Shown: positions 16,801 through 64,000, numbered from the stretch's first letter. The stretch: 64,000 nucleotides of DNA from Blasia pusilla (GCA_050084515.1 CM114271.1:31868001-31932000), one strand, 5' to 3'. Translations and numbers: made by a program. Notes: a model not told the origin generated them from the sequence alone.

Positions 16801-17099
16801 TTTCGCCGTGTGAAGCAACATCGCATCCCGAATTCTCCTCCCTAGCTCCTCGTCCAACACTCTGTACCAATACTGGAATGGCTGTGCCTCAGTCATCCCA
16901 TATGTGGCAATGATCAACCGTCGCATGCACGTGAACGCTTCCCTCGGACTCTCACCCGATCTCCGTTGAAAATCCTTTAGACTCTTCAGCTTGTCGATTT
17001 TCACACCCTCGTAGCTCCTACTAAACTATTGGAAGAACTCCACTGTTGGACTGAAACTCGGTGGTCCTCTACCACGATATCCATGAATTAGATACTCAT
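13877..17099 (-). mobile_element. Internally deleted Ty3/gypsy element of the MTase-bearing group (gag, protease, MTase motif I stub, 3' B1-A2-B2 repeats)
   Basis: Gag (PPSFSPTVEFFQ, KLKSLKDFQRRSGES, CDHCHQYGHTRDRC), protease (RVLLDSGARPLML, 15309-15617) and EQGTRVLDLLGGIKT near 14790-14830 are all homologous to ORFs 57801-61623. Direct repeats at 13877-14014 and 14505-14643. Confidence 0.85.
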
Positions 17100-27745: not shown

Positions 27746-29860
27746 GATCCTCAGCTTAGGAGTGGCTGAGCAGCGCCGTATGAGGTCGCGATAGATCACA
27801 GCGGTTGCGTTGGTGAGCCCCATGCCTACCGGGACGATGGAGGCAATGGCTGGGGGCAAGACCGGAGGAGATCTACACACCAAGGGAGATTGGGAGAGAC
27901 ACCCTTGGACTTCTTGGGATGTTTTGCAGGTACGCCAAGAGATGATAGCCACAATATCGAGCGTAGTTCCGGGCACTGCACATGGAGGAGATCAGAGTTT
28001 GCAGTTGGCTGCAAGAGAGCGGCCGAGTGTTGTTGTTCGAGACGGGGTTGCACCATAGCAACCACCGATACCCGCGCCAGAGAGTCCTATCGTAGTCACG
28101 ATGGAGACTTGGGAGCCAGATATGGGCCCTAATTGACAGGAGGAGAGCAGCGCCGGATATATTAGTTCCTCAGGAAATACAGGAGCTGCTTTGAGTTTTG
28201 CATGGAGGATTTGGGTATGCTGAAGGGACCGGGGATCCGCAATGAGTTGTCGAGTGATACGCCGATGTTTCGATGACCCTACAAGTATAGTGAAATGGAG
28301 AGGGATTTGATTTAGAGTAGGAGCCAGGACTAGTGGAGATGTCGCATGGGGAGTACGCGTGTGCCACTATCATGCCCGCCAAGAAGGATGTGCATGGCAA
28401 CTGGACGCATAGGCGGATGTGTGGGGATTACCGACCTATCAATCGGCACACGAAGTCGGATAGGTATGCCATGCCCACCCTTGAGGAGATCTTTGAGGCA
28501 ATTGGTCACGCAAAGGTCTTCAGTTCATTGGATTTGCAAGCCGGATACCATCAGTTGCCTATCAGATTGGAGAACAAGCGAGAAGACGGCATTTTGGGAC
28601 ATCGATCCTCACTTGAAGGATTGTTTGTACTAGTGGCGGTTCTTACCATTTGGGTTAAAGAACACCCCAACTGAGTTTCAGAGGGTCACGGATAGGATCT
28701 TGGCTGGGCTGGATTTTACTAGGTGTTATATTGATGACATCGTAGTCTTTAGCGCCACGGTTGAGGAGCATGAGCAACATCTAGAGGAGATGATTTGACG
28801 ATTGTAATAATATGGGCTGAAGCTACATCCAGGCAAGTGAAAGTTCTTCTACGACCAGATTGAGTACTTGGGTCATACGATATACCCAGGGGGCCTTGGT
28901 GTTCAACAGACAAAGGTAGAGGCTATCTCACGCATTCCACGCCCTACACATGTGACTCGTGTTCGCGCATTCATGGGATTGGCACATTTCTATCGGCGGT
29001 ATGTCAAGGGATTCAATTCGATTGCGAAGCTGCTAACCTTGCTGACCAAGGTGGATCACGAGTGGCACTGGGAGGATGAGCAGAAGCGAGCATTTTAGTT
29101 GCTCAAGGGCAGATTGTCGTCCGCGCCCATCTTGAGGAGATCGATCAGGGGGCGTCCTTTCCAGTTGCACACAGATTAGAGCATGTTGGGACTTGGAGCG
29201 GTGCTCACCCAACATGATGATGAGGGTAGAGAGTTCGTGGTGACTTATGCTAGCCGCTCGAACAACGCTACAGAGGCAAAGTACAGCTCGCATGAGGGTC
29301 AGTGCTTGGTTGTAGTGTGGGCTGTTGCGCATTTTAGGTGTTACTTATTCGGCAACCCCTTTACCATCATCACTGATCATCAACCATTGAAGTGGTTGAT
29401 GGAGTCCGAGAATCATACAGGGAAGCTTGCGAGATGGGCTCTGTTGTTGAAGGAGTATGATTTTCACGTGGTGCATAGACCTGGGACACTCAATCAAGAT
29501 GTAGATGGGTTGAGTCGTAATCCATGCCCTAGTCACCGAGATGGGACTGGAGCTCGATGGTATGGAGAGAGTGATGAGGAGTCAGTGCCAGGATGGCATG
29601 CGTCAGCCTATTTAGGCATGTTGGCTATGGAGAGCTAGAGTGTGGAGACTTTGATGGCGAGGTCTAGTGGAGAGTCCTTGGATCCCGAGGCGAGTGAGGA
29701 GACGACATGTGGCCGAGATATTCATGATGATGGAGTAGTCTTGTAGTACCTTTGTACAGGTAGCGTTGCGAGACCCGTGGGTACTAGAGAGCGGGATCGG
29801 ATCCTACAGCGGGCCAGACGGTTCCGTTGCGAGGGGACATATGTTTTGAGGGTTTGGGAG

Positions 29861-32800: not shown

Positions 32801-34522
32801 CGATTGTGAGTGCGTGTTGAGTAGATAGGCATGGAGAGTGGTGTAAAATAACAAAGCGCCAAATAACAATAAGATCCCGAACCAAACCAAGACGTAGCCA
32901 ATGATATTGACCCCGATATCTTGATCTTCTAGATGAATGAGAGGTAGAAATTGAGACTGATGAAAGTAGCAATACCGCCATAACCCCTTCTGCCCGTTGC
33001 CTTCTCGATTCCATGTCGATCCTACCAAAGTAAACCCTTGCATCTCTGCAATAGTATTGCTCTCATGTTCCCAAGTCTCCACAATATTAATAATATCTGC
33101 CATCTCCCAAATTGGTAGAGCACTCACATACTTTGCTGTTGAAAGGCCTCGTATATTCCACATCAACACTCTCAGCTTCTTGGATTGCTAGGTTGATAAC
33201 TCTCTTTTTCTCTTGGTAACAATTGCTCGCCCATCTCGTAGATAAGCAATAAAACCTGCTTCTTGAGCCTCTTTGACCTTTGCAAGCTCCTTTCTCCTAG
33301 CTTCGACTTGTAGAGGTGTGAGATCAGGATCCAACCATATCCTCCGTCCTTTGAGAATGGCCTTGTTAGCCATGGCGAGATCACGTTGAGTTTGATCAAC
33401 AAACTTGACTACAATGGCACGAGGTTGTGTGCCCGTTTTCCCAATACGAAAAGCTTGAGCCAAGTCCGGGTTATGAACATGAAGTGTATCAACCAAGAAC
33501 TTAGTGACAACACTCTTCACCTCTTCGCTCTCTGTTTCCGGTAAACCTGAGATTCTCACATTCTTTCTACGGGCAAATTGGTTTTCTTTTTCTATCTCTT
33601 GCTCTTGTGAGAAAGAGATATGAGCAACCTTGTAGCTTCAAAGATAAGATTTCATTTTCACTTCTAAAGTTTCAACAACCTCATGCAATCCTAAACTATT
33701 GGGAGTAGTCACCAAGGATGATGCCTTCTCTTGAACATCCGCAACAGATTTGGAAAGATCCAGCATCACACTAGAACTATCTTTCAACACTTTCTTCAGA
33801 ACCTCTTGCGTTGCCTTCAACTCTCGGATTTGAATATGTGCATGGTTTAATTGAAAATTTTGTACCTTGAATTCTTGTCGAAGCTCTTTCACTTCATGCA
33901 AGACCACTTGCACTAGATTCAAGATTTCGTCTTGAGTGGTCATCCTGTAGTCGACTTCACTGCATCCCAGAAAGTATAATTGAATCTCCAACACCACACA
34001 ACTTCTGCTCTAGAAGTTGGTTGTACTTGAAATTTCTAGGATTAAGACGCCTCTAGAAATTTCACGTTGAGTCCAAATCTCAGCTTCATATGACACTCCA
34101 CCTCAAAGTTATGGCCTCAGCAAGATTCAGATCTGAAATGCTCAAATCTAGAAGTGCAGAAACTCAAATCTTTCACAACTTCGTATATATAACTCGGTTG
34201 TGCTTGCAAATCTGAGAGCTAGGGAGCCTCTTTATACTTCACGTTGCCTCCAAATCTTAGCTTCATATGACACTCCACGTCAACGTTATGGCCTCGGCAA
34301 GATTCAGATCTGAAATGCTCAAATCTAGAAGTGCAGAAACTCAAATCTCTCACAACTTCGTGTGTATAACTTGGTTGTGCTTGCAAATCTGAGAGCTAGG
34401 GAGCCTCTTTATACTCCACGTTTCCTCCAAATCTCAGCTTCATATGACACTCCACCTCAAAGTTATTGTCTCGGCAAGATTCAGATCTGAAATGCTCAAA
34501 TCTAGAAGTGCAGAAACTCAAA
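29861..34522 (-). mobile_element. Near full-length non-LTR retrotransposon (LINE, RTEX-like), inserted antisense in the gypsy integrase
   Basis: ORF1 ~33943-33188 has a coiled coil and RISGLPE...FRIGK...PRAIVVKF...IWLDPDLT (RRM/Tnp22-like). ORF2 has an APE endonuclease (WNIRGL, VETW, GDFNAR), RT (NYRTI, QAGFR, FIDFKKAFD, GVIQGCPLSPTLF, LLYADD) and a C-terminal CRLC...EDEEH...C finger. 3' tail (ATTTACC)n. Several frameshifts. LINE identity is firm; the clade name is tentative. Confidence 0.9.
34061..34522 (-). repeat. 177-bp tandem repeat (about 2.6 units) forming the LINE 5' UTR
   Basis: CTTCATATGACACTCCAC starts at 34084, 34261 and 34438 (period 177). Units are near identical. Confidence 0.92.
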
Positions 34523-35873
34523 AATGGCAGAGGATGCATAGTGCCACATCCTTCATAGAGAGCACGACTAGTGCAGCATGCCCATGAGGAGTTGGGTCAC
34601 TTTGGGATGAAGCGGATGTACAACTTGCTCTTGATGCAATATTGGTGGCGAGGCATGCAGATTGACGTTCAACATTTTGTTGCCAAGTGCATGGTGTGTG
34701 ATCGGGTTTGAGCATCGTTCAATGCTCTGACTCCACAGTTGCATCCATTAACGATCATGGGCATAGGGTATATATGAATTTTGGATTTTGTAGCACCTTT
34801 GCCTTTGACGGAGCGTCAGAGTCGTTATGTGTTGGTGATGGTCGAGACTTCTCATAGTGGATCGAGTTGGTTGCATTGCCTAACAAAGCGAGTGAGGGAG
34901 TAGCTTATGCCTTCCTTGACAGAGTGTTGAGTCATTATGGTGCACCGGCTGAGGTATTGACAAACGAGGGTACCGAGTTTCGTGGTGAGTTCCAAACCTT
35001 GTGTTATTAGGCGCTGATCGACCACCACACGACTTCGCGAGATCATCCTGAGACAGATGGATTAGCCGAGAGAGTTATGCAGACGGTGAAAAGGGGTTTA
35101 CGCAAATATGGCTTGAAGAGAGATCACCTAGGAGATTGGGACCTCCAGTTGCCGTGGTTGGCGATGGGATACAGATTCAGCAGGCAAGCATCCTTAGCGT
35201 CTTTTTCACCGTACTTGCTACTTTATGGCCGAGAGCCAGATTTACATGCGGCCATTCGTCGAGATGCTGAAGAGGTGTTGGACCTTGATGACCCAAATGT
35301 ATGGATGCGAGCATGTTCTCAAAGGGCTGAGTTGTTTCGGAGAGTGATGCCCATGGCGTTCGAGAACTTGGTGATTGTGCAGCATTGGGATACGTTGAGG
35401 TACGCGACTATTCGGGATGGTGGTTATCGACCAACTGTCCGGAGGTTTCATTAGGGAGGTTATGTGTACTTGCAGCAGACGACACCGACGACGTTGGATG
35501 TGACTGCAGGGCGCACTATCCTGAGAGTGCGTGACGTTTTTCCATCTGGTGTTCTCTTCCTGGAGGGACGCGATGGTATGGTATGGAAGGACCATGTGCG
35601 TAATTGTGCGCCATGTTACCTTCCTAACATTGATGGTACAATAGATCCGAGCTTAGTAGTAGTTCCTACAGGCTTTGGCGTTGTATGTTGTGTGGTTTTG
35701 CTCGTGGTGGATCTGCTCGTGGTGTGACATGGATGACAGGAAGGCGACTAACGATGGGGCCACATGAGCACGCGACCTTTCTGCTCTTAGCATCATAGAG
35801 ATGTATGTCGTGGTAGGTAGGGATAAATGACTATCAGGAGTAAGAGGGACCTTACCACCAACTAGGGGGCGAT

Positions 35874-36704
35874 TGTAGATATTTTGGTACTTCTCACCTC
35901 TATGTATGGATGCCATGAGTAAGCATGGGATCGTGTGTGTTCGATAACAACAATGTATGTTGTGTAGCGATGTGTATGCGCTCGACAACTGTCACGACTG
36001 TTATGATAGATCGGTGGGATCTAGCATAGCGTCTGCACGAGTAGTGGAGGACAGGCCCAAGAGGTCGAGGATGACTTGTTGAGGCCCCACGAAACCTGAG
36101 AGAGTAAGTTTCCCCTTCGTTTTGGCTCATTTGGAGCCATATATAGAGACTTACTATATCGGGTAAGTTTCCATATTGGAGATAGTTGACTTTCCACTTT
36201 GGGAAGTGGCGCTTGAGCTCTCAAGCTCTCTCTACTTGAGGTATACCCCCTTCCCTCTCCCAAGTCCTCTCAATGGTAACCTATGCTCGCAGGTCATCTC
36301 CTTGGCTCTTGGGAGATGACCTGCGAGCATAGAGAGGGTTACCGTCGAGAGGGCTTGGGAGAGGGAAGGGGGTATACCTCCCACAGAGAGAGCTTGAGAG
36401 CTCATTCTCTCTTTGTTGAACCTCTTGGCACAAGGCGGAGGAGCTATGGTCCCTTGCCTTGTGAGTGTAACCTAAGCCTCTCATTAGGAGAGTTGGTTTG
36501 GTTTGACATGAGAGAGAGTGCACACCTTTGAGAGCTATGGTGTGAGATGGTGTAGAGAGAGATTGGTTCTTACTTTATTGGAGATATTTTGGTACTTCTC
36601 GCCTCTGTGTATGGATGCCATGAGTTAGCATGGGATTGTGTGTGTTTGTGTGTGTGTTCGATGATAGCGATGTATGTTGTGTAGGGATGTGTATGCGCAC
36701 GACA
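35874..36704 (+). repeat. 3' terminal block B1 (35874-35987) - AC - A2 (35990-36577) - B2 (36578-36704)
   Basis: B1 and B2 both read AGATATTTTGGTACTTCTC...GATGTGTATGCGC(T/A)CGACA. A2 matches A1. Confidence 0.9.
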
Positions 36705-51703: not shown

Positions 51704-51952
51704 TGTCACATCTTTTAGAATAGATAGGCGAGTTCTAGTAGAGCGCCTTCAGAGATACTGAAGGACAACCTCAAGAGGTCAAGGATGACTTGTTGAGGCC
51801 ACGGGTAACTTGCGAGAGCATGTTTTCCCTTCGTTTCGGCTCATTTGGGAGCCATATTGAGGAACTTACTATTTTGGGTTAGTTACTATTTTTGGTAAAG
51901 TTGACTTTCCACTTTGGGAAGTGGCCCTTGACCCACTACAACTGGTCAAGAG
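51704..51952 (+). mobile_element. 5' part of an A repeat of another family member, interrupted at 51953
   Basis: Starts TGTCACA and is colinear with the first ~250 bp of A. Breaks at GTCAAGAG, where a new A copy begins. Confidence 0.8.
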
Positions 51953-54900
51953 TATCATGACTTTCAGGATAGATCGACAAGATCTAGTAGAGCGCCTTCA
52001 GAGATATTGGAGGACAACCTTAGGAGGTCGAGGATGACCTATTGAGGCCACAAGTAACTCGAGAGAACAGGGTAAGTTTCCATTTAGAGTATAGTTGAAT
52101 TTCCACTTTGGGAAGTGGCCCTTGACCTGCTACAACACGTCAAGAGCCAAGGAGATGACCTGCGAGCAGAGGTTAACGAGGACATGGCTTGGGAGAGGGA
52201 AAGGAGTATACCTCCAATTGAGCTCATTCTCTCTTTGTTGAACCTCTTACCACGAGGCGGCGGAACTATAGTCCCTTGCCTTGTGAGTGTAACCAAAACC
52301 TCTCATTAGGAGAGTGGGTTTGGTTTGACATTTGAGAGAGACATGTGAGAGTGCACATATGTGAGAGCTATGGTGTCACGTCTTTTAGGATAGATCGGTA
52401 AGATCTAGTAGAGCGCCTTCGCGAGTAGTAGAGGACAAGGTCAAGAGGCCGAGGATGACGTGCTGAGGCTCCGGGAAACTTGAGAGAGCAGGTTTTCCTT
52501 TCGTTTCGGCTCATTTGGAGCCATATTGAGGAACTTACTATTTTAGGCAAGTACCATTTTAAGTATATGGTCAACTTTCTATTTTTTGGAAGTGGCCCTT
52601 GACCTCCTACATCAGGTCAAGAGCCAAGGAGGTGACTTGGGAGCATAGGTTACCATGGAGAGAGCTTGGGAGAAGGGAGGGGTATACCTCGAAGAGAGAG
52701 AGCTTGAGAGCCCATTCTTTCTTTGTTGAACCTCTTAGCATGAGGCGGTGGAGCTATGGTCTTGCTTGCCTTGTGTGTGTAACCCAAGCCTCTCATTAGG
52801 ATAGTGGGTTTGGTTTGACATTTAGAGAGACATGTGAGAGTGCACACATTTGAGAGCTATGGTGTTGAGAGAGATTGGATCTTGATTTATTCGAGATATT
52901 TTGGAACTGCTCGTCTCGTTGTTTGGATGCCATGAGTTAGCATGGGATCGTGCATGTTTGTGTGTGTGTTTGGTGACACCGATGAATGTTGTGTAGCGAT
53001 GTGTATGCGCACAACAATGGTGTTGTAAGGGAGATTTGATCTTATTTAACAAAGAGAGAATGAGAGGTTGAGAGAGCTTCAATGGAGAAGCTCGCCAGTT
53101 ACTCGCTATTGGTGCAGGTTGGGGATCGTGTTCCCCATTCAGCGGCTCATGGGAGTGCTCATCGAAGCAAGCGCTACTTGTTTTTTTGTTTTCCATTGCC
53201 AATTTTTTGTGTGGAAGAATGGCGTGCGGAAGCACTACCCAAATTTCTTTAGAGATGAAGTTTGGGGGCGGATTTCCCCATGCCAATGCTCTCGGGAGCA
53301 CCAAGTAGCTCAATAGTTTGTGAATTTTACATGTCTGAAGTTTTGTGTGGAAGAAATTAGCACGGAAGCGCTGCCGATTTTGTCCTAGGAGTGCAAATTT
53401 GAAGACTGCATGACACTTCTCGTCAGTTTTTGTGGGAAAGTTGAATGAAAAAAATTAGACAACATCATAGATCTCAAAGTTGTGCACGTTGTGGAAGAAA
53501 TGGTGCGCAATTCTAAGCTGCGAGCAAAAATTTATGGTTGATCTTGCAAAATTGCCATTGCTAGGCAATTTTTAGGGTTAAATTGTTCAAACCCTAAACC
53601 AACCTCCGCGTGGGCGCCGGCGGCGTCTGTCACCATCACCATCATCGTCAACGCTCCGCAGTCAATCGTCAACCGTCACTATCAAATATCCTCCGTCAAC
53701 GGTGCACCGTCACCGTCACCGATCCACCGCCGCCATCATCGTAGTTTCGTCATCAACCAGTGATGGTAGATGACCTCAAGTTGACGGTTTTTTGAGTTTT
53801 CATTTCATTCTGCTATATTGTGATTGGTAGTCGCTCGACAATGATCGAGTACCATGCCGTGACGCCCGTAGCCGCAATACGCCGCTCGTGGCCACACTGC
53901 ACTGTCTCGATCGCGGCCGCTCCTTCACTTAGGTGTAGAGCGTGTGTATTGCTAATTGAGGAGGATATGATGCGGAGTGCCGCATCCCATTGTCGAGTGT
54001 CATGCTGTTTTGTAGCCATTCGGTGCCGCCAGCACCGCACCGTGCCACTGGATCCGCACCGCATAATGAGGAGATTTGAGCATCGTCAATAGCATAGGGG
54101 TACGACTTACTGATTGGAGGATTTTGTTGTCCCGACTGAGTTGGGGTCAAGGTTTGCAGTTGCTAAGGAGCAATCGACATTTGTTCAGGTTACCAATTCT
54201 GGTCTTTTTCCTATACGTGTCAGGGAATTCCGGGTATTGGGTAGTTATTTGGGATATTGGGTTTCATGCAGATGCTAAGAACATCGTTGATGCATGGGTT
54301 TAGGGCACATAGACCTGTGTGGGGTGTCCAGAGTTGAGGGTATGTGCTCTTCATGAGATGATAGGATAGTAGTTGATTTGTCGCACCACGCCGTTTGTTG
54401 CCGCACAACAAACTTCTCAGTGAGAGAGACCGTAGATTGAGTGCCGCATGTTATATTGCACCATAGCAACCACCAACACTTGCGCCGGAGAGTCCTTCAA
54501 TAATCATGATGGAGACTTGCGAGCCAGATATGGGCCCTAAGTTGACAGGAGGAGAGCGGCGCCGGATACATCAGTTCCTCAGGAGTTATAGGAATTATTT
54601 TGTATTTAGCATGAATGATTTGGGTACATTGAAGGATCCAACCATCCACATTGAGTTGTCGAGCGACACGCCGATCTTCTGATGACCCTACAGGTACAGT
54701 GACATGGAGAGGGCTCTGATTCAGAGTAGGAGCCAAGACTTGGTTGGAGTAGGACTAGTGGAGATGTCACATGGAGAGTATGCATCTGCCACTATCATGC
54801 CCGCCAAGAAGGATATGCATGGCAACTGGATAGATAGGCGGATGTGTGGAGATTATTGACCTATCAATCAGCAGACGAAGTCCGATAGGTATGTTATGCC

Positions 54901-56871
54901 CATCCGTGAGGAGATCTTTGATACTATTGGGTATGCAAAGGTCTTCACTTTGCTAGATCTTTGAGTTGGATACCATCAAGTGCCTATTAGATTGGAGGAC
55001 ATGTAGAAGACGGCATTTTGGGGCATCGATCCTCACGGGAAGGATTATTTGTACCAGTGGCGGTTCTTACCATTTGTGTTAAAGAATGCCCCGGATGAGT
55101 TTCACAGGGTTATGGTTAGGATCTTGACAGGTCTAGATTTTGCTAGGTGTTATATTAATGACATCGTAGTCTTTAGTGCCACGGTTGAGGAGCATGAGCA
55201 ACATCTAGAGGATGTATTTTGACGATTGCAATTACATGGGCTCAAGCTACATCCAGGCAAGTGAAAGTTCTTCTATGACTAGATTGAGTACTTGGGTCAT
55301 ATGATATATCTAGGTGGCCTTGGTGTGCAGTAGACAAAGGTGGAGGCTATTTTACACATTCCACGCCCTAAAAATGTGAGTCGAGTTTGTGCATTCATGG
55401 GATTTGCAAACTTTTATCGACAGTACATCAAGGGTTTCAATTCGATTGCAAAGCACCAAGATGGATCAGGAGTGGCACTGGGGGGATGAGCAGAAGATAG
55501 CATTTCAGCTGCTCAAGGACAGATTGATGTCCACGCCTATATTGAGGTGATCGATAGGGGGCGTCCTTTCCAATTATATACGGATTGGAGCATGTTGGGG
55601 CTTGGAGCCGTGCTCACCCAGCATGACGATGATGATAGAGAGTTCGTGGTGGCTTACACTAATCGCCCGAAAAACGTTGTAGAGGCAAAGTATAGGTCGT
55701 ATGAGGGTGAGTGCTTGGCTATAGTGTGGGCTGTCGCACATTTCAAGTGTTATCTATTTGGCAACCTCTTTACCATTATTACTGATCATCAGCCACTTAA
55801 ATGGTTGTGGAGTCCGACAAGCTTACAGGGAAGCTTGCCATGTGGGCTCTGTTGTTGCACGAGTATGATTTACAGGTGGTGCATAGACCTGGGATGATTA
55901 GCCATGATGCATATGGTTTGAGCCGTTATCCATGCCCGAATCAGCGATATGTGACTGGAGCTCGTTGGCATGGTGAGAGTGATGAGGAGTTGATGTCAGG
56001 ATGGCACGCGTCAGCCTAGTTGGGCTTGTTGGCTATGGAGAGCCAGATTGATGAGACTTCGATGGCGAAGTCTGATGGAGAGTCCTTAGATCCAGAGGCC
56101 GGAGAGGAGACGATAGATGGCCGAGATATTCATGACGATGGAGTAGTTTTGGAATACTTTTGTATTGGTAGGGTTGCGAGCACAGTGGGCGCTAGAGTGC
56201 GGGATGGAATCCTACCGCAAGCCAGATGGTTCCGGTGGGAGGGGACACATGTGTTGCAAACTTGGGAGGATGATACAGTACATGTAATGCCTCATCCTTC
56301 AGAGAGAGCGCGTTTGGTGCGTCATGCCTACGAGGAGTTAGATCACTTTGGAGTGAACCGGACGTACGTCTTGCTCCACATACAATATTGGTGGCGAGGC
56401 ATGCAGACTGACGTTCAGTAGTTTGTTGCCAGGTGTATGGTTTGTGATCGGGTCTAGGCATCGTTCAATGCTCCAACTCCACAGTTGCATCCACTTTCGA
56501 TCATGAGTTTAGGTTATAGATGAAGTTTGGATTTTGCAGAACCTTGACCTTTGACAGAGTGCCATAGTTGTTATGTGTTCGTGATGGTCGAGCACTTCTT
56601 GAAGTGGATAGAGTTGGTTGCATTGACTGACAAAGAAAATGAGGGAGTAGCGTATGCATTCCTAGATTGAGTGTTGGGTCATTACGGCACACCAGCTGAG
56701 GTGTTGACAGACTGGGGTATAGAGTTTGGGTACATAGTTCCAGGCCCTATATGATGAGGAGCTGATCGACCACCTTACCACTTCGTGAGATCATCCTGAG
56801 GAAGATGGACTAGCGGAGAGGATTGCGGAGACGGTGAAGAGAGGATTACCCAAGTATGGCTTGTAGAGAGG
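51953..56871 (+). mobile_element. Gypsy element of the same family as 23431-36704, with gag-protease-MTase deleted; interrupted at 52374 and 56872
   Basis: A1 (TATCATG start) joins directly to the internal leader 53050-54455, which is homologous to 23980-25445. It then jumps to sequence homologous to 28048 onward (RT, RNase H, integrase up to TVKRGL). Confidence 0.88.
52374..53016 (+). mobile_element. Solo A-B terminal unit (solo-LTR equivalent), 643 bp
   Basis: TGTCACG...GCGCACAACA, colinear with 35990-36704. Flanked by a 4-bp TSD ATGG (52370-52373 / 53017-53020). Confidence 0.9.
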
Positions 56872-58412
56872 TGTCATGACCATACGGATTATGTCGTAGA
56901 GTATAGTGTGCTAGTAGAGGCCATACCATATGTAGGGCTGCAGTATCTAGGTAGAGATGCGATTTCATACATAGGGTTGGGGGTTACTCAATTGAGGGTG
57001 ACTTTTCCACTAGGGCCCGCTCTTAGGTTGGAGGATATAAGGTGGAGTGCACTCAAAGAACAGTTAGTTCTTTGAGTTGAGCCTATTGCGTTGGGAGTTA
57101 GCCTTGGTAGTGAGTAGAGCTCTTGGCTATTGTGTTTCCCACAAGCTTTGACCTAGATTCTCCCATCGTGGAGTGGGTTTGGCTCGATTGTATGTGATTC
57201 TATACATGTTTTATGACAGTAGGTCTTCGAGGCAACTTGTGGTAGCTCGGGGCGAGTGGGCGTGAGAGGCGGAGTAAGGAGCAAGGAGCAAGCAAGCAAG
57301 CTTGCTTGCTTGAGCGTGAGGCAGTTTTTGCAGGATTTGTGATTTGAGTGTTGCATAACTGGTCACCCATCTTTGGGCTATTCTGCCTGAAAGACGCTTA
57401 ACTGCTGAGTTCTTAACTATGTTAGTGTACACACTGGTGTAGCTCATTTGGTGCTGTTCGGAGATGTGTTAGGCACTTTATGCATCTCAGGTTTTTGGTT
57501 GATGTACCTCTAGCACATAGTACGGTGTAGCCTCTCCATGCAAGTGATACTTTTAGGTGCTGCGAGTCCGACTAGCACGTCATAGACCCGCGGCGCAGTA
57601 GCTATTACGTTAGAATTGTGTGGTGGGTTCTGTGGATTCAGGGGGCGCCACGTTTGGTGGATTGTGTTACCTTGATTTCCATTTGCGATTGGAGGGTTGT
57701 TCGTTGGACTTCCTGTGTTTGGATCTCCTCCATCGTTGCTTCTTGCTTGCACGCCCATTGTTAGAGACTCCAACTCAATGGTTGGAGTCCTCCCATTGAG
57801 TTGGAGGACTTCATGCAGGAGTTTGATACGTGGTGTGATATGCAGATGTCGCGGAACGCCACGTTGTTTACACCCTTCTTGGCTTGGAAGGGGTTGTTTC
57901 AGCACTTGGAGGGACCACCCATGGATGATTACCATGAGTTTAGGAAGGACCATGTTGCTGAGATTGAGGTGTGGAGACAATATTGGTCTCCAGGCTATGT
58001 GTCTATCACCCATGGTGGTATTGGTAGTAGTGCTCCTACTATGCCAGCCAGCCCGACGTTGAGTGGTACGAGTACGAGCCGGAGTGGGGGTACTAGTGGA
58101 GGTACCCATGGAGGTACCAGTGGAGATACCTATGGAGGTACCAGTGGGGGTACTAGTGCCCCACCATCGTTCAACCCGGTTGCAGAGTTCTTCAAGAGGT
58201 TGAAGAAGAACTATCAGGGAGTGAAGACAGAGAAGTTGAGGAGTCTTCAAGAATTTGAGCGAAAGATTGGTGAGAGTCTTCGTGAGGCATACACTTGTAT
58301 GCGACGCTTGATTTCAGTTACCCAGGGTGTGATTGAGGCTTAGGCAGTCCAATTTTGGTATGGGATGTTGGACAGAGAGTTGCGCCGTAGGGTACGTGAT
58401 GCTACTCTTATG

Positions 58413-58812
58413 GTAAATGGTAAATGGTAAATAGATCAAGCCCGTGGGACCCAAAGGGTCAAAAGGCTGAAAAACAAATTACAAGTCATTCATTCACTGA
58501 CCCTGAAAAAGATCCTTAAGACCTTCTCCTAGCTACAGCCTAGAGCACTTGAGCGATGAATGATGACGTCCCTAAGATAACAACATAAATCATAAGGCAC
58601 TAGTTGTAGTAAAGAATAGAAATTCTCCACATCTATTTTATGAGCTAGTCTAATTTCTTCATACCTCGGACATGTAACAAACACATGCTCTTCATCTTCA
58701 ATATTTTCTCCGGCACATAACCTACAAATTCGTTCACTTCTATCAATTTTAAACCATAGTCCTTCCTCAATTCCTAGCCTATGTGACCCAGCTCTATGAG
58801 GTGCGATAATAT
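58413..58812 (-). mobile_element. 5'-truncated 400-bp copy of the LINE inserted in gag
   Basis: Near identical to 29861-30258, including the (ATTTACC)n tail. TATG is duplicated at 58409-58412 / 58812-58815. Removing the insert restores gag ...RRVRDATL-M-SDDSPTL. Confidence 0.93.
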
Positions 58813-59808
58813 ATGAGTGATGATTCACCCACATTGACCCATGTGTTTGCTCTATCTGAGAAGATTGAGCTTAATATGGTGAAGGAGAGAGTGGTGACAT
58901 CCGCATTCAGTTTGGATACAACTACTACTTCTCGTGTTCAGCAGCCCACCTCACAGTCTTGTAGTAGTGGTGGTGGTAGTAGTAGTGGAAGTCGTGGGGG
59001 GTACACACGACCTCAGTCAGTCCTAGAGGGACACTTGCGCAGAGACCATTGCCTTCATTTGCTTCCCCGCAGCAAGGACAGTCAAGTTGGACATGTGGAG
59101 GTGATCATGTTAGGAAGTTTTGTCCCCAAGAGGATGGGAGACGGACTTTGGAGGATGGGCCTCAGTCGGCCCCAACTCAGTGTGATCATTGCGGGAGACT
59201 AGGTCATCTTCGAGAGCTTTGATCTTCATCCAGAGTTGAGATCAGGCCGCGGCCGTGTTGGAGTAGCTCCGAGAGGCCGAGGCGGTAGGGGTGGTAGAGG
59301 TGGACCAATGGTTGGAGAGCCTATGGTGGCTACCCCTACCACTCTGACAGTCGACTATGGTCGCTAGGATTGAGCTTGATTGGAGCGAAGTTGGCTACTA
59401 TGGTTGGTATCCAAAGATAGATCGAGTTCGAGAGAGCAGGGGCTTCCACCTCTTATGGAGGGATGATCTCTCTTATATGGCGAGTGCAAAGATGAGGTTG
59501 AGGCATCGGCTGCGATTCTGAGAGGAGCCACTCGGCGTCGAGCCACGTGGTGCTCTTGTGGAGTTGGACCCTGAGGGGTGAGGCGGGAGGCGGGCTAGGC
59601 TTCCCAGTCATTCTTGTTATGCGAGGTGCTTAGGCCTCCATCCATGGTTCCCACGCAACCTATTGAGCCGACATCGGGGAGGCATCTACATCGCGTGTAG
59701 TAGACACAGATCTGACATCGAGGCTTGATGTGCGGATGGCAACTTCAGTGTTGGGATCCCCATTGTTTTCGGCCACGGAGCTGATGGCTTTAGGAGTTGA
59801 TTTAGCTC

Positions 59809-61623
59809 GTGTATTTCAGCAAGCAGCCACATTGTGTGAACATGGGGGTGTTACTGCTACACGCTGAGGTGGATGAGGGTGTTGCGGTGGAGCAACCCTC
59901 TATGTCAGGTGTAGCATTGAGTACCAGTGCTACTTGGCAGGCAGAAGCGGAGAAGATGGATGCATTACCAGCCCGACCAGCCATTGATGGTGAGAGGCTT
60001 ACACCTTGTGCATATATGTTGGACAATCGGAGTGGGATATTCCGATTGGTGAGTCCTACAGGACAGGTGTATAGACCAGATAGAGTCTTGTTAGACTCTG
60101 GTGCCCAACCTTTGATGTTGGGAATGGCGGCATGTATTGGTTTGGGTATTCGGAGGTTAGAGCTTGAGCCTTGCCCATTCCAGATTCAAACATCACTTGG
60201 AGGAGCCAATGATAGGTCTCAATTCATGACAAGAGAGAATTTTTGTGTACAGTTGAGACTAGATCATGCGACTGATAGCTTTCGGTTGGGAGTATCTGCG
60301 GTAGTCACATTAGTCAAGTCGTATGATGTTCTAGTTGGAGGAGCAGTATTGTACCCAATGGGTTTTCAGATGGATTACTGGACTGAGACAGTGTCTTATA
60401 GACCTGGTTGGAAGTTTGGGGATGGACGTATGAGCCAAGTTCCTGTGAGATTTATTTATGGGGCTCGACCAGGAGGGTCTTCCCCAACAGTGTTAGCATC
60501 TGTGGCTGGTTTTAGTGGAGTAGTCACTTGGCGAGGAGACTTTTTGGAGGGTAATGTTTCTACTATGGATTCTCCTGTGCATGAGGAGGTCCCTATTTTT
60601 GCAGCAGTGGCATCCTCATCGTTGGATGTGCCACTTTGGAGTTCAGGCGGTGCACTATGGCAGGAGGCTGATCGCCTAGTGCAGGAGGCTTGGTGTGAGG
60701 TTGTTATACCTCACGAGGAAGAGGAGGCCCCACGACGGACTCCTACTTCTGGTCCAGTTGGGTTATCCCCTTTGGATACTACACTCATTGTATGGCAGTA
60801 TCCGCCGGAGGGCATTTGTGTGTTAGATCTCTTTGGTGGGATTAGCACTGGTTTGGCTGCAGTGTTGCAGGCCGGTATTCCTGTGCGGAGATACGTGTAT
60901 GTGGAGCGAGATGAGACGGCCCAGAGAGTCTCATCCCGACATATTGGTCAGTTGATGCGGAGATATCCTGAGTTTTTGCCGCCATCAGCTATTCGTGGGT
61001 ACCAGCGTGCTTTGCCGTCACACATTGCATTGTTGGGGGCGCCGGACCTTGAGAGGGTTGGTCTTGTGGATTTGGTGATTGATGGATGGCCATGTCACGG
61101 TCATATACGTGCTGGTCGTTGTGAGGGATTACACGACCCTAGGTCTCGATTGTTTTGGGAGATGTTACGGGTGTTACGACATCTTCAGGTTCATCAGGCA
61201 CGTGCTCTAGCTTACATTCTGGAGAAAGTTCCATTGTTGGGTGACACTCGGACCCGGATAATGACGAGTGTTCATGAGGTGCGGTCTTGGATTGGACCGG
61301 TGGTATTGTTGGATGCAGCGCAAGTTGGCTCTCGTGCACATCGTCCACGCTTGTGGTGGACAAACTTGTTGCCTAGGGAGGTTCTACGTCGAGCATATGA
61401 TGCAGTGCAGCGGGATCCTTGCCTTACAGTGGATAGTATCTTGGATATTGGGCGACTTTCTGAGGTGGTGAGGGTTATTGATCGGTCACCCATGGCAGTG
61501 GTGAACCGTGTGGGCCAGCCTAGGATGGCACTACCCACATTTGTGAGTTTTCCCTCGTCACATGCATACAGGGAAGGTGGTCCCGGGATTCCATTTCTGA
61601 GGCTTCACGACGTCATGTGTTGA
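59809..61623 (+). CDS. Gypsy pol segment: aspartic protease fused in frame to a DNMT3-like cytosine methyltransferase (C-terminal motif IX deleted)
   Basis: One open frame carries RVLLDSGAQP...SYDVLVG, then ICVLDLFGGISTG (60814), YVYVERD, DLVIDGWPCHG (CCATGT at 61090), RLFWEMLRVL, YILEKV and AHRPRLWWTNL. Motif X (RHVLSQAMD) follows out of frame at ~61611-61640. The start is not a true initiation codon because this is part of a broken polyprotein. Confidence 0.9.
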   Translation: MYFSKQPHCVNMGVLLLHAEVDEGVAVEQPSMSGVALSTSATWQAEAEKMDALPARPAIDGERLTPCAYMLDNRSGIFRLVSPTGQVYRPDRVLLDSGAQPLMLGMAACIGLGIRRLELEPCPFQIQTSLGGANDRSQFMTRENFCVQLRLDHATDSFRLGVSAVVTLVKSYDVLVGGAVLYPMGFQMDYWTETVSYRPGWKFGDGRMSQVPVRFIYGARPGGSSPTVLASVAGFSGVVTWRGDFLEGNVSTMDSPVHEEVPIFAAVASSSLDVPLWSSGGALWQEADRLVQEAWCEVVIPHEEEEAPRRTPTSGPVGLSPLDTTLIVWQYPPEGICVLDLFGGISTGLAAVLQAGIPVRRYVYVERDETAQRVSSRHIGQLMRRYPEFLPPSAIRGYQRALPSHIALLGAPDLERVGLVDLVIDGWPCHGHIRAGRCEGLHDPRSRLFWEMLRVLRHLQVHQARALAYILEKVPLLGDTRTRIMTSVHEVRSWIGPVVLLDAAQVGSRAHRPRLWWTNLLPREVLRRAYDAVQRDPCLTVDSILDIGRLSEVVRVIDRSPMAVVNRVGQPRMALPTFVSFPSSHAYREGGPGIPFLRLHDVMC

Positions 61624-64000
61624 GTCAGGCCATGGACGTGAATTGTTTGACCTGGATTTTGAGTCTTGGTATGGACGAGCAGCGTCGTCTTCGGACTATG
61701 TCTGTGGGTCTTCCACCCCTTGTAATGAGCTTGATGGCTACCGGGATGGTAGAGGCACCAGCTGGGGGCGAGAAGAGTAGTATTTTGCATTCTTGGAGTA
61801 AATGGGATGTAATGGTTGGGCATGTGGAGTTGGTTGCTCATGCTGGTGGAGGAGTTATTTGCTCAAATGATGGTGTAGCTAAGGGTGTACCATCTTGTGA
61901 GGGGGTTGCGTAGCAGCCAATGGCATCGTCCTCTCCCTCTAGTGTGCCAGTGGAGGAGACTTGGGAGCCATTACTTGGGCCCAAGCTTACGGGAGGTGAG
62001 AAACGACGCTTGACACAGTTCCTACGTGCTTATAAGAGTTGTTTTGCCTTTAGCATGAAGGAGTTGGATGGTCTGGTTGGACCCGGTATACGGATTGATT
62101 TGGCTAGTGATACGCCAATCTTTCGTCGTCCCTACCGATATAGTGATATGGAGAGGACCTGATTGAGTAGGGCGTTGGACCTTTTGGAGGCTGGATTAGT
62201 GGAATTGTCGCATGGAGAGTATGCATCATCCCCTTTGTCATGCTGCTAAAAAGGATATGCATGGCAACTAGCACTACGGATAGGCGGATGTGTGGAGATT
62301 ACCGTCCTATCAATCGGCAAACCAAGGCCGATAGGTATGCCATGCCTACACCTGAGGAGATCTTTGATGTGGTGGGACATGCAAAGATTTTCAGTACTTT
62401 GGATCTTCGGGCAGGATACATTGGGGAGAGTGACAAGGCCAAGACAACATTTTGGGGTGTCAACTCTCATGGCAAGGATTGTTTGTACCAGTGGAAATTC
62501 TTACCCTTTGGGTTGAAGAATGCACGTGCCGAGTTTCACACAGTGATGGACAAGATCCTAGCAGGGTTGGATTTTGTTCGGTGTTACATTGATGATATCT
62601 TGGTATCAATAACACGGTGGAGGAGCATCAGATACATTTGTAGATGGTGTTTGAGCGGTTGAAAGCTCATGGTCTATGTTTGCATCCAGGAAAGTGTAAG
62701 TTCTTCCATGAGGATGTTGAGTACTTGGGTCATGTGATCTATCCAGGTGGTTTGGGAGTTCAGCAAGCAAAGGTGGAGGCTATTGCACTTATTCCGCGTC
62801 CGGTAGATGTGAGTAGAGTTCGAGCATTCATGGGATTGGCGAACTACTATCGGAGGTATGTGAAGAGATTTAGTGCTATGGCAAAGCCTTTGAACCAATT
62901 GCTGAAATTAGATCAAGAGTGGCATTGGGGAGATGATCAGGAGAGAGCTTTTGTGGAGCTTAAGGCCCAGTTGGTGGCGACGCCTAACTTGAGGAGACCT
63001 ATCAGAGGGCGCCCATTTCAGTTACACAGTGATTGGAGTAGGTTGGGACTTGGAGCGGTGTTGACACAACATGATGATGAGCACATGGAGTTTGTGGTGG
63101 CCTATGCAAGTCGTTCGAATAATGCAGCGGAGTCGCGCTATAGTTCATATGCGGGAGAGTGCTTGGCAGTAGTGTGGGTGGTGGCACACTTTAGGTGTTA
63201 CTTGTTTGGCATACAGTTTACACTTGTTAGTGATCACCAACTGCTCAAGTGGTTGATGGAGACTGACAAGCTTACAAGGAAGCTTGCACGGTGGGCTCTT
63301 ATCTTATAGGAGTATGACTTCCAAGTGGTACATAGACCTGGAGTTGCCAACCTTGATGCTGATGGGTTGAGTAGGAACCCATGTACTAGCCAAGAGGATA
63401 CAATTGGGGCTAGATGGCATGGCGAGGTTGATGAGGAGATGGTGCCAGGTTGGCATGCACCCGCCTTTTTATGTTGGTTGGGGGTGGACTCTAGTATGGA
63501 CGACCACATGATATCTTACTCTAGTCAGAGGGTAGATGGCCAGCGTTCAGATCCTAAGGTTGGAGATGGCGGTACGGATCAGCGTGATATTCATGATGAT
63601 GTGTTGGTTTTGGAGTTCCTACGGACCAGTAGGATGCCAGGCATAGTGAGTGCCAAGGAGCGAGACCGTGTTCTTCAACGTGCTAAGAGGTATCGATTGG
63701 AGGGAACACATATTCTCCGTGTGTGGGAGGATGGTAGAGTACGAGTAGTGCCGCATTTGGCTCAAAGAGAGCGCATTGTGCAACATGCCCATGAGGAGTT
63801 GGGACATTTTGGGGTAAAGCGTACGTATAGCTTACTCCTTGGTCAATATTGGTGGCGTGGCATTCAACTCAGGTGCAGCAGTTGGTATCATGTTGTATGG
63901 TTTGTGACCGAGTGAGGGCATCATTCAATGCCCCTACACCACAGTTACACCCCTTGCCTATTATGGGGTTGGATTACCGTTGGAGTGTGGACTTTGCGGG

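What the first reader, a model, noticed from the sequence alone, without database searches (positions are those of the whole stretch)
59809..61660. Ty3/gypsy retrotransposon with a DNMT3-like cytosine methyltransferase between protease and RT
Seen: a single 604-aa frame joins the protease (LLDSGA) to C5-MTase motifs I (LDLFGG), II, IV (catalytic PC), VI (ILEKV; ILENL in the sister copy) and VIII (AHRPRLWWTNL), and RT, RNase H and integrase follow. Established: DNMT3 catalytic domains read approximately RVLSLFDGIATG / DLVIGGSPC / FENV / AHRARYFWGNL, and ordinary gypsy pol has nothing at this position. From memory, MTase-carrying retrotransposons have been reported in dinoflagellates and charophyte algae (de Mendoza et al. 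2018), so the concept is not new, but I know of no description in a land-plant genome. Inference: the domain is packaged with pol and could methylate the element's own cDNA or its target site.
Basis: partly seen in the sequence, partly recalled or inferred. Interest (0 to 1): 0.9.

Follow-up and report, generated by a model that had tools for sequence, protein, structure and literature searches.

The report
Gypsy retrotransposon carrying DNMT3-like methyltransferase
This is a worn-out copy of a jumping gene in a liverwort-like plant genome that carries its own DNA-methylating enzyme, a kind of element that has so far been described in print only from algae.

Summary
Window 59806-61623 (+) is one 605-codon frame joining a DSG protease region to a collinear DNMT3-type C5-methyltransferase domain (motifs I, II, IV, VI, VIII). 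RT, RNase H and the integrase zinc finger follow. The copy is dead. It is 5'-truncated and split by a LINE fragment. A 31-residue deletion with a frameshift removed motif IX, PCQ reads PCH, ENV reads EKV, and pol is frameshifted. Three more copies lie in the window: one with stops, one truncated after motif I, one with protease and methyltransferase cleanly deleted. The family is real and constrained. The named relatives are all bryophytes (Marchantia, Calypogeia, Sphagnum). 153 related stretches occur in metagenome contigs. Methyltransferase dN/dS is 0.21, against RT 0.17, RNase H 0.16, gag 0.19 and protease 0.26. Strand-biased RNA reads from other copies cover the domain, including the motif IX segment lost here. 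Full relatives end in integrase plus a PHD finger. A larger sister group with chlorophyte-named members has the methyltransferase between RNase H and integrase. The host gene nearby is most like liverwort genes. The concept is known (Klebsormidium Gypsy-DNMT3, 2018). I found no printed description for land plants. Function is inferred, not shown.

The parts
57793..64000 (+). Copy C: 5'-truncated, decayed Ty3/gypsy element with the MTase domain; it runs off the window end
   Evidence: tblastn of Marchantia polyproteins P0012, P0009 and P0017. RNA reads continue upstream of 57793 with sequence unlike the window, which reads PRRYSGAVG, the gag N-terminus of the relatives (table 7).
57795..58424 (+). 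gag, first part
   Evidence: 60% identity to P0017 residues 21-219; dN/dS 0.19 against 31 loci.
58412..58814 (-). Inserted 3' fragment of a LINE, 94% identical to 29860-30259
   Evidence: Self-blastn. RNA and DNA reads of other copies skip 58408->58812 (table 5). The strand bias of reads is reversed here.
58813..59861 (+). gag, second part, with frame changes
   Evidence: tblastn of P0012 and P0017.
59806..61623 (+). The 605-codon frame of the finding: protease region, linker and MTase motifs I-VIII
59983..60450 (+). Protease-like region (DSG at 60088-60105; SYDVLVGG at 60319-60342)
   Evidence: Motif and position. Asp_protease_2 matches only 1 of 15 relatives (E 0.0012) and P0161 (E 2.8e-4, below cut-off). 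No PDB sequence match. dN/dS 0.26.
60454..60765 (+). Conserved linker with no known family
   Evidence: No Pfam hit; dN/dS 0.29 against 66 loci.
60772..61590 (+). DNMT3-type C5-MTase domain, motifs I-VIII; it reads PCH for PCQ, EKV for ENV, and VIDGW for VIAGW
   Evidence: 74% identity to Calypogeia P0005; PDB DNMT3A hit; motif tally; dN/dS 0.21 against 76 loci.
61590..61590 (+). Breakpoint: a 31-residue deletion (P0005 part 274-304, including motif IX) with a frameshift
   Evidence: tblastn alignment. RNA loose ends at 61587 and 61589 carry the missing LVWDSHVRQL... and ...GFATGVTAV segment.
61593..61643 (+). Motif X remnant (ISEASRRHVLSQAMDVN) in frame +3
   Evidence: it matches DNMT3A motif IX/X stretch 2 of the profile search.
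62171..62662 (+). Reverse transcriptase (RVT_1, partial)
   Evidence: Pfam E 8.6e-10.
62644..63309 (+). RT C-terminal end and Ty3/gypsy-type RNase H
   Evidence: PF17917 at 1e-30 and PF17919 at 6e-29.
63310..63915 (+). Integrase N-terminal zinc-binding domain
   Evidence: PF17921 at E 1.4e-9.
23435..36577 (+). Copy A: sister subfamily with both LTRs (23435-23977 and 35990-36577, 89-93% alike), interrupted by a LINE at about 29860-34500 (-)
26032..27845 (+). Copy A protease (DSR for DSG) and MTase with motifs I-X; 5 in-frame stops and 1 frameshift within the MTase
35374..35676 (+). Copy A integrase C-terminal tail; the PHD finger that follows in relatives is missing
   Evidence: tblastn of the P0024 C-terminus covers residues 1-101 of 152 only.
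51704..56870 (+). Copy B: same subfamily as A, with protease and MTase cleanly deleted (A 25445->28048 corresponds to B 54452->54456)
   Evidence: Self-blastn.
14748..17067 (-). Copy D: gag, protease (DSG 15458-15441) and MTase motif I (LDLLGG 14810-14793), then cut off

Best explanation
The feature is a dead copy of a Ty3/gypsy LTR retrotransposon family. Its single gag-pol frame reads gag(CCHC), protease, DNMT3-type C5 cytosine methyltransferase, RT, RNase H, integrase, PHD finger. Shown here: the domain order, the collinear DNMT3-like motif set I-X in relatives, purifying selection on the methyltransferase as strong as on the canonical pol domains, and strand-biased transcripts of other family copies in the coded species whose DNA run best holds this stretch. 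Inferred: the methyltransferase is made as part of Gag-Pol and travels with RT and integrase in the particle. There it would use S-adenosylmethionine to methylate the element's new cDNA or the freshly integrated copy de novo, while the PHD finger on integrase reads histone H3 tails to choose the landing site. I give about 0.35 to self-methylation of cDNA or the new insertion as the selected function. Identity and selection carry the confidence given below. The window copy itself is inactive.
For: Frame and motifs. DNMT3A is the best solved relative (single sequence E 3.6e-10; family profile E 2.6e-16). It ranks ahead of DNMT3C and 3B, tobacco DRM (2.3e-7), HaeIII (5.5e-5), DNMT2 (2.6e-4) and Arabidopsis DRM2 (3.6e-4). 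No DNMT1 was listed. The order is I-IV then VI-X, as in DNMT3 and not as in DRM. RT, RNase H and integrase Pfam hits follow downstream. A near-intact relative, L038, has one frame (321-6809) with only 2 stops, holding zf-CCHC, PF00145 (49 bits), RVT_1, RT_RNaseH, Integrase_H2C2 and rve. Fifteen of 30 protein hits are named, and all 15 are bryophytes: 11 Marchantia, 2 Calypogeia, 2 Sphagnum. 153 of 300 candidate metagenome stretches encode relatives. Median dN/dS of the window copy against loci: MTase 0.21 (76 loci, range 0.145-0.327), gag 0.19, protease 0.26, RT 0.17, RNase H 0.16, integrase N-terminus 0.20. Bootstrap intervals: L004-L038 0.17 (0.11-0.25), L004-winC 0.215 (0.15-0.29); the close copies L004-L006 give 0.83 (0.44-1.55), as expected for decay after insertion. 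Catalytic motifs are kept in most copies: LFGG 71 of 81, WPCQ 61 of 82, LENV 72 of 82. Three RNA runs cover the whole element at depth about 40-140, almost all with the first mate on the minus strand. Reads are mostly 90-99% alike (X22: 33 of 2769 at 99% or more), so they come from other copies, and they carry the motif IX segment. PHD finger at the C-terminus of relatives.
Against: The window ORF itself scores 21.3 bits on PF00145, below the 22-bit cut-off. It lacks motif IX and has EKV and PCH at catalytic motifs. Most relatives are also decayed: only 5 of 80 loci have a stop-free best MTase match, and only 2 of those span the whole domain. The structure prediction never finished, so no fold was compared. 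No activity, methylome or protein evidence was available. In de Mendoza et al. 2018 (section 10 read in full) the Klebsormidium Gypsy DNMT3 domain gave no detectable methylation in yeast; the authors call that result inconclusive. All dN/dS values share the window copy, so they are not independent, and dS of 0.6-0.85 is fairly high. The library protocol of the RNA runs is not on record, so sense orientation is inferred from the usual convention. Transcripts do not prove translation.
Confidence: 0.85

Rival explanations
1. The domain is kept for a role other than catalysis. It could be a DNA-binding or partner-recruiting module in the manner of DNMT3L, bringing host methyltransferases or chromatin factors to the element.
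For: No activity is shown anywhere for a Gypsy-borne DNMT3 (the yeast test was negative or inconclusive; PMC5890265 section 10). DNMT3 enzymes work as oligomers. Selection alone does not say which function is selected.
Against: Catalytic residues are the best kept columns: P429, C430, E473 and V475 are invariant and N474 nearly invariant in alignment A1. WPCQ is kept in 61 of 82 copies and LENV in 72 of 82 despite decay. The SAM-binding motifs I and II are kept too.
Confidence: 0.12
2. The enzyme acts mainly on something other than the element's own cDNA: on host chromatin in trans, on flanking DNA at the landing site, or on RNA.
For: de Mendoza et al. 2018 raise RNA and host-genome effects (Discussion read in full). 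The PHD finger suggests a link to chromatin. DNMT2, an RNA enzyme, is a detectable though weaker relative (E 2.6e-4).
Against: DNMT3A similarity is about 12 orders of magnitude stronger than DNMT2 similarity. The position inside pol next to RT favours action within the replication complex. No data here separate these targets.
Confidence: 0.15
3. A host DNMT3 fragment was captured passively by a few copies and has no function.
For: The window copies are all broken, and copy B has lost the domain outright.
Against: dN/dS is 0.21, equal to that of the essential domains. The domain occurs in at least 3 of the 4 window copies, in 153 metagenome stretches and in three bryophyte genera. 477 clusters at 50% identity match at E<=1e-30.
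Confidence: 0.02
4. The juxtaposition is an artefact: a host DNMT3 gene next to or nested with a gypsy insertion, or an assembly chimera.
For: The region is a nest of transposons, with LINE insertions in two copies.
Against: One uninterrupted frame spans the protease region and the MTase. The same junction recurs in copies A and D, in L038 in a single frame, in Marchantia and Calypogeia gene models and in RNA reads.
Confidence: 0.01

Closest known systems
KnitGypsy-Dnmt3 of the charophyte alga Klebsormidium nitens (de Mendoza et al. 2018, PMC5890265; passages and sections 10-11 read)
   Same: A non-rearranged DNMT3-type domain sits inside the Pol frame of a Gypsy LTR element in a streptophyte. 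Key residues are kept. The paper reports purifying selection with Ka/Ks below 0.2; here the value is 0.21. The copies lack introns.
   Different: The host here is a land plant (liverwort-like), and the named relatives are mosses and liverworts. Copy A has ordinary direct LTRs, whereas the paper's Fig. 4 legend describes a DIRS-like repeat arrangement. Relatives carry a PHD finger after integrase. The text I could read does not give the position of the domain in the Klebsormidium Pol, and I had no Klebsormidium sequence, so common origin is open.
SymbioDIRS-Dnmt3 of Symbiodinium dinoflagellates (same paper)
   Same: A DNMT3-type domain in a retrotransposon polyprotein. This is the only case with shown de novo CG methylation, in yeast.
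   Different: It is a DIRS element with a tyrosine recombinase in an unrelated host lineage, and the paper states it was an independent capture.
Cellular DNMT3 (human DNMT3A/3B catalytic domain; plant DNMT3 such as Physcomitrium DNMT3b; DRM as the permuted plant paralogue)
   Same: Motif order I-X, a short target-recognition region, and the best sequence match among solved structures.
   Different: No PWWP, ADD or plant DUF domain was found. The domain is embedded in gag-pol. About 62 bits to DNMT3A, against 230-580 bits among the transposon-borne relatives.
RT-RH-MTase-INT-PHD gypsy elements; the named members are from Monoraphidium neglectum and Haematococcus lacustris (database proteins, no paper found)
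   Same: The MTase domain is the sister group in the tree (27 against 89 rows, support 98). The integrase tail plus PHD finger aligns end to end at 45-53% identity with 47 of them.
   Different: The MTase lies between RNase H and integrase, not between protease and RT.
Chromoviruses and 'EpiLTRs' (preprint 10.64898/2026.05.21.726589, passages read)
   Same: LTR elements that add chromatin modules: a reader domain at the integrase C-terminus and methyltransferase domains.
   Different: The methyltransferase is DNMT3-type, not DNMT4-like or adenine-specific. That preprint still lists only 'streptophytes (Gypsy-DNMT3)' for this type.

Membership tests
C5 cytosine methyltransferase (PF00145) | Score at or above Pfam's gathering cut-off (22 bits) | tested here: not met
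   The window ORF scores 21.3 bits, E 2e-4. Relatives pass: P0002 42.7, P0005 35.2, P0012 27.1, P0009 29.0, the L038 piece 49.0 and L004 31.3. The shortfall belongs to this decayed copy, not to the family.
C5 cytosine methyltransferase (PF00145) | Conserved motifs I (FxGxG), IV (PC), VI (ENV), VIII, IX and X | tested here: met
   The family consensus has all of them. The window copy C has I, II, IV (PCH), VI (EKV), VIII and X, and has lost IX.
DNMT3 subfamily | Non-permuted motif order (I-V before VI-X), unlike DRM | tested here: met
   Collinear alignment to DNMT3A chain residues 7-198 and 8-173 plus 238-267. DRM chains match only with their C-terminal half (residues 224-347).
DNMT3 subfamily | Closest to DNMT3 among characterised methyltransferases | tested here: met
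   Profile E-values: DNMT3A 2.6e-16, 3C 2.4e-13, 3B 1.2e-12, tobacco DRM 2.3e-7, HaeIII 5.5e-5, DNMT2 2.6e-4. This ranks solved structures only and is not a phylogeny.
DNMT3 subfamily | Placement inside the DNMT3 clade in a tree with named DNMT1, DNMT3, DRM, CMT and DNMT5 references | not tested
   No named reference sequences could be brought in.
DNMT3 subfamily | N-terminal reader domains (PWWP/ADD in animals, a DUF in land plants) | tested here: not met
   No such Pfam hit in the window ORF or in the 15 relatives of A1. A PHD finger sits far downstream, after integrase.
DNMT3 subfamily | De novo DNA cytosine methylation activity | not testable with these tools
   This needs an enzyme assay or a methylome.
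Ty3/gypsy LTR retrotransposon | Pol order protease-RT-RNase H-integrase with gypsy-type RNase H | tested here: met
   RVT_1, PF17917, PF17919 and PF17921 in that order in copy C. L038 adds rve.
Ty3/gypsy LTR retrotransposon | Long terminal repeats | tested here: met
   Copy A: 23435-23977 and 35990-36577, with segments 89-93% identical. Copy C: none seen; its 5' end is truncated and its 3' end lies beyond the window.
Ty3/gypsy LTR retrotransposon | Retropepsin-type protease | tested here: inconclusive
   A DSG motif plus a hydrophobic-G motif at the right place. Asp_protease_2 matches 1 of 15 relatives (E 0.0012) and P0161 (22 bits against a 24.3 cut-off). No PDB sequence hit. No structure model was obtained.
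KnitGypsy-Dnmt3 (Klebsormidium) | DNMT3 domain inside Gypsy Pol, under purifying selection | tested here: met
   (0.21 here; the paper reports below 0.2, passage).
KnitGypsy-Dnmt3 (Klebsormidium) | Shared origin of the DNMT domain and of the element backbone | not testable with these tools
   No Klebsormidium sequence was on hand. The paper's supplements are closed, and the figure with the domain order is not held.
KnitGypsy-Dnmt3 (Klebsormidium) | DIRS-like arrangement of repeats (paper, Fig. 4 legend) | tested here: inconclusive
   Copy A shows a plain direct LTR pair with a 98-base internal inverted segment. I did not search for a second repeat set.

The most novel reading that the evidence does not exclude
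One old lineage of PHD-finger Ty3/gypsy elements, spread from chlorophyte algae to mosses and liverworts, has carried a DNMT3-type methyltransferase throughout, shifting its place within pol at least once. It is still transcribed in a living liverwort-like plant. Its enzyme writes methylation on the element's own new DNA, so part of de novo methylation in early land plants is transposon-encoded. The nesting of Sphagnum copies among liverwort copies at dS about 0.8 would then reflect transfer between mosses and liverworts.
Probability: 0.3. Interest if true: 0.8.

Novelty: new member of a known kind. Interest (0 to 1): 0.55.

Why it matters
Cytosine methylation is the host's main weapon against transposons, so a transposon that keeps its own de novo methyltransferase under selection is a paradox. 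Its purpose has been open since 2018. The published cases sit in Symbiodinium and Klebsormidium. This family is present in Marchantia polymorpha, an established experimental liverwort (mutants, knock-downs and methylomes in the passages), and in Sphagnum. Other copies of it are transcribed in the coded species whose DNA run best holds this stretch. If intact copies exist there, the function of transposon-borne DNMT3 becomes directly testable. Tests could ask whether new cDNA is methylated, in which sequence context, and what happens to transposition and silencing when the catalytic cysteine is removed. The finding also shows that plant LTR-element reference classifications miss an extra pol domain and a PHD finger: the REXdb survey text has no mention of either. 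Finally, genome annotations label these copies as cellular DNA methyltransferases or hypothetical proteins. That can inflate DNMT counts in bryophytes.

Tried and rejected

**Names for unnamed representatives.** The ESM Atlas gave only a 57-member cluster labelled Streptophyta and phage methylase clusters, which was no help.

**Protease.** The profile of the protease region found no meaningful solved relative. The only hit was an antibody chain at E 0.086.

**Sequencing-run index.** No RNA holder was listed among indexed runs. The RNA evidence comes from raw runs added by species label and then laid on the window.

**Pairwise dN/dS among 24 close metagenome copies.** The median is 0.55 (300 pairs). 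I read this as a mixture of selection and post-insertion decay, not as weak constraint, because close copies approach 1 and distant ones 0.2. The script stopped with an error after 9 of 15 pairs.

**Literature.** One search was mis-set (min_terms 1) and gave nothing useful.

**Considered and rejected.** DRM was rejected on motif order, and DNMT1, CMT and bacterial-type methylases on ranking. Host gene capture and nesting are treated under the rival explanations.

**An oddly labelled relative.** One relative (P0363) is labelled as a bacterial MAG (Minisyncoccia). With RT, RNase H, integrase and PHD domains it is most likely a mis-binned eukaryotic contig.


Full report
**What is there.** The window holds a stop-to-stop frame at 59806-61623 (+) of 605 codons. 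It contains LLDSGA (60088-60105), then about 240 residues later LDLFGG (motif I, 60823-60840), YVERDE (II), GWPCH (IV, 61084-61098), ILEKV (VI, 61216-61230) and AHRPRLWWTNL (VIII, 61336-61368). Downstream, in other frames, Pfam finds RVT_1 (62171-62662), RT_RNaseH and RT_RNaseH_2 (62644-63309) and Integrase_H2C2 (63310-63915). The sister copy it mentioned exists at 26032-27845 with ILENL.

**Is it a methyltransferase, and of which kind.** The window ORF alone hits PF00145 at 21.3 bits, just below the 22-bit cut-off.
- Against solved structures its best relatives are DNMT3A catalytic domains (E 3.6e-10). The alignment is collinear from motif I to beyond motif VIII.
- A profile of 12 relatives raises this to 2.6e-16 and adds a second aligned stretch over motifs IX and X.
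- The ranking in that search is DNMT3A, 3C, 3B, then tobacco DRM (2.3e-7), HaeIII, DNMT2 and Arabidopsis DRM2. DNMT1 is not listed.
- DRM chains match only through their C-terminal half, as expected for their permuted order. The domain here has the unpermuted DNMT3 order.
- This ranks solved proteins and is not a phylogeny. I could not bring named plant DNMT3 or Klebsormidium sequences into a tree.
- The structure prediction never finished, so the fold test remains open.

**State of the window copies.** None is functional.
- Copy C (57793 to the window end) is 5'-truncated. RNA reads from other copies run on upstream of 57793 into sequence that encodes the gag N-terminus seen in Marchantia.
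- Copy C carries a 400-base LINE fragment at 58412-58814, which other copies lack.
- At 61590 it has a deletion of 31 residues with a frameshift. The deletion removes motif IX, and motif X survives in frame +3 at 61593-61643.
- At columns that are invariant or nearly so in relatives it reads PCH for PCQ and EKV for ENV. Its RT to integrase part is split over four frames.
- Copy A (23435-36577) has both LTRs at 89-93% identity and all motifs I-X. It also has five in-frame stops and a frameshift in the domain, DSR for DSG, a LINE inserted at about 29860-34500, and no PHD finger.
- Copy B (51704-56870) is a deletion derivative: 2.6 kb holding protease and methyltransferase is replaced by 3 bases.
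- Copy D (minus strand, 17067-14748) has gag, protease and motif I, and is then cut off.

**The host.** No genome is held. A GH9 endoglucanase gene lies at about 6886-11435 (-). One exon is 81% identical to Marchantia polymorpha, 76% to Calypogeia fissa and 74% to Riccia fluitans. The other plants among the 120 listed hits lie at 59-70%. The host is most likely a liverwort that is not itself in the protein database.

**The family.** Of 30 protein relatives found with the domain, 15 carry names, and all 15 are bryophytes: 11 Marchantia, 2 Calypogeia, 2 Sphagnum. Marchantia Mp_2g26090 carries RVT_1, RNase H and PF00145 in one model.
- In JGI metagenome contigs, 153 of 300 candidate stretches encode relatives, and 80 were fetched.
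- Most are decayed by stop codons with few indels. Only 5 of 80 have a stop-free best match, and 2 of those cover the full domain.
- L038 is nearly intact. It has one frame of 6.5 kb with two stops, reading zf-CCHC, PF00145 (49 bits), RVT_1, RNase H, Integrase_H2C2 and rve.
- The C-terminus of full relatives is an integrase tail followed by a PHD finger. Pfam scores are 36.7 bits in Marchantia P0024 and 40.5 and 37.1 bits in L035 and L080. tblastn gave 35 matches in the loci.
- The full architecture is therefore gag, protease, methyltransferase, RT, RNase H, integrase, PHD.

**Selection.** I computed Nei-Gojobori dN/dS between the window copy and the loci, domain by domain. The medians are:

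| Domain | Median dN/dS | Loci |
|---|---|---|
| gag | 0.19 | 31 |
| protease region | 0.26 | 47 |
| linker | 0.29 | 66 |
| methyltransferase | 0.21 (range 0.145-0.327) | 76 |
| RT | 0.17 | 48 |
| RNase H | 0.16 | 33 |
| integrase N-terminus | 0.20 | 26 |

dS was 0.6-0.85. The methyltransferase is thus as constrained as the parts the element cannot do without. Independent pairs agree: L004-L038 gives 0.17 (bootstrap 0.11-0.25). Near-identical copies approach neutrality: L004-L006 gives 0.83 (0.44-1.55) (the script stopped after 9 of 15 pairs). Among 24 close copies the median over 300 pairs is 0.55, which fits selection along lineages plus neutral decay after insertion. The values share one sequence and are not independent. 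Catalytic motifs survive in most copies: LFGG 71 of 81, WPCQ 61 of 82, LENV 72 of 82.

**Expression.** Three RNA-seq runs carry the same coded species label as the best DNA holder. They cover the whole of copy C, including the methyltransferase, at depths of about 40-140, with only 6-12% of each run read.
- Reads lie almost entirely with the first mate on the minus strand (for example 60 against 0-5 across the domain). The bias flips over the antisense LINE fragment.
- By the usual convention this means sense transcripts. The protocol is not on record, so this is an inference.
- Only 33 of 2769 reads in X22 are 99% or more alike, and the rest are 90-99% alike. The transcripts therefore come from other copies.
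- Their loose ends at 61587 and 61589 encode the LVWD...GFATGVTAV segment that this copy has lost.
- The family is thus transcribed with an intact motif IX region. Translation is not shown.

**Wider relatives.** A profile search of 1.84 billion representatives gave 7075 hits at E<=1e-3 and 477 at E<=1e-30.
Thirteen show protease-MTase or MTase-RT adjacency, as here. Seventy-three show RNase H-MTase or MTase-integrase adjacency, mostly as RT-RH-MTase-INT-PHD. Fifty-four hold the domain alone, and eight gave no match to my probes.
- A FastTree of the 116 rows with a full domain splits them cleanly into 27 rows (this type plus domain-only rows) and 89 rows (the other type plus domain-only rows), with support 98. 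The rows left out were the partial ones.
- Named members of the second type are from Monoraphidium neglectum and Haematococcus lacustris, among 120 listed hits. One is labelled as a bacterial MAG, probably mis-binned.
- The integrase tail plus PHD finger of the Marchantia element aligns end to end at 45-53% identity with 47 second-type proteins.
- The two architectures therefore share a backbone, and the methyltransferase has changed place within pol. Whether the Klebsormidium element belongs to either type I could not test.

**How it probably works.**
- Shown: the domain order, the selection and the transcription.
- From established knowledge of Ty3/gypsy replication: Gag-Pol is packaged, protease releases the pol products, and cDNA is made in the particle and integrated.
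- Inferred: the methyltransferase is present where the cDNA is made and methylates it, or the new insertion, de novo. The PHD finger steers integrase by reading histone H3 tails, as chromodomains do in chromoviruses.
- Why this would pay is open. de Mendoza et al. 2018 (Discussion read in full) list several ideas: avoiding recognition as foreign DNA, protection from deaminases, shaping chromatin at the landing site, or self-limitation.
- I put self-methylation of cDNA or the new copy at about 0.35, other targets at 0.15, a non-catalytic role at 0.12, and the remainder undecided.

**Comparison with what is known.** The closest described system is KnitGypsy-Dnmt3 of Klebsormidium nitens (PMC5890265; abstract, passages and sections 10-11 read).
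- A 2026 preprint still lists only 'streptophytes (Gypsy-DNMT3)' (10.64898/2026.05.21.726589, passages).
- Marchantia methylation papers that I searched by passage name only the cellular MpDNMT3 genes (10.1101/2021.02.12.428880; 10.1101/363937). The passages of PMC6453930 concern Physcomitrium DRM mutants and a reference-list entry, not Marchantia genes.
- The plant LTR-element reference survey has no occurrence of 'methyltransferase', 'PHD' or 'Marchantia' in its text (PMC6317226).
- Searches found no paper describing such an element in a bryophyte or any land plant.
- The library lacks most subscription journals, and supplements were closed. The trees in the supplements of the 2018 and 2025 papers may include bryophyte copies.

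**Verdict.** The finding is real and correctly read, apart from the missed pseudogene state. It is a new member, in a land plant, of a known kind of element. The added results are selection equal to that on core pol domains, transcripts of other family copies, a PHD finger, and a large sister group whose named members are chlorophytes. These make it a useful lead rather than a surprise of the first order.

Noticed in passing
window 29860-34500 (-) and 58412-58814 (-): A non-LTR (LINE) element with RVT_1 (30555-31535) and a C-terminal Cys/His motif is inserted in copy A. A 3' fragment 94% identical to it is inserted in copy C. RNA reads over the fragment have the opposite strand bias, so this LINE family is transcribed too.
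   Followed up: partly
L001-L033 subset (24 loci), MTase region: Decay is dominated by C>T and G>A changes: 997 of 1299 minority differences, at both CG and non-CG sites. This explains the many stop codons with almost no indels, and it fits deamination of methylated cytosines. CpG observed/expected in window copy C is 0.55.
   Followed up: partly
P0166, P0187, P0274, P0357 and about 70 further representatives: A large sister group of gypsy elements has the MTase between RNase H and integrase and a C-terminal PHD finger. Named members are from the chlorophytes Monoraphidium and Haematococcus. I found no paper on them.
   Followed up: partly
L035:7237-7689, L080:10015-10467, P0024 residues 563-607; window 35374-35676: Relatives of the window's element end in an integrase tail plus a PHD finger, at the place where chromoviruses carry a chromodomain. 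Window copy A has the tail but lacks the finger.
   Followed up: yes
tree (P0013 Sphagnum, P0012 Marchantia, P0005 Calypogeia, window copy C): Sphagnum and the metagenome copies nest among liverwort copies, and window copy C is their sister (support 85). dS is about 0.8 and protein identity about 77%. Either old subfamilies were sorted or elements moved between mosses and liverworts. No host dS was available to decide.
   Followed up: no
window 51704-56870: Copy B has lost exactly the protease and methyltransferase part: 2.6 kb of copy A corresponds to 3 bases. gag, RT, RNase H and integrase are kept. It could be a non-autonomous derivative.
   Followed up: partly
P0024 (Marchantia Mp_7g09570): This annotated 'PHD-type domain' protein is a gene model stitched from pieces of such an element: protease end, MTase fragments, integrase tail and PHD finger. 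Such models can be mistaken for cellular chromatin genes.
   Followed up: partly
window 6886-11435 (-): A multi-exon GH9 endo-beta-1,4-glucanase gene, the only clear host gene I examined. It was used to place the host near liverworts.
   Followed up: partly
window 18912-19379 (+): A Ty1/copia reverse transcriptase fragment (RVT_2, E 2e-32).
   Followed up: no
window 23735-23832 and 36214-36311: The LTR of copy A contains a 98-base segment that is present in inverted orientation next to its direct counterpart. The LTR of copy B (51704-53016) has internal tandem duplications.
   Followed up: no
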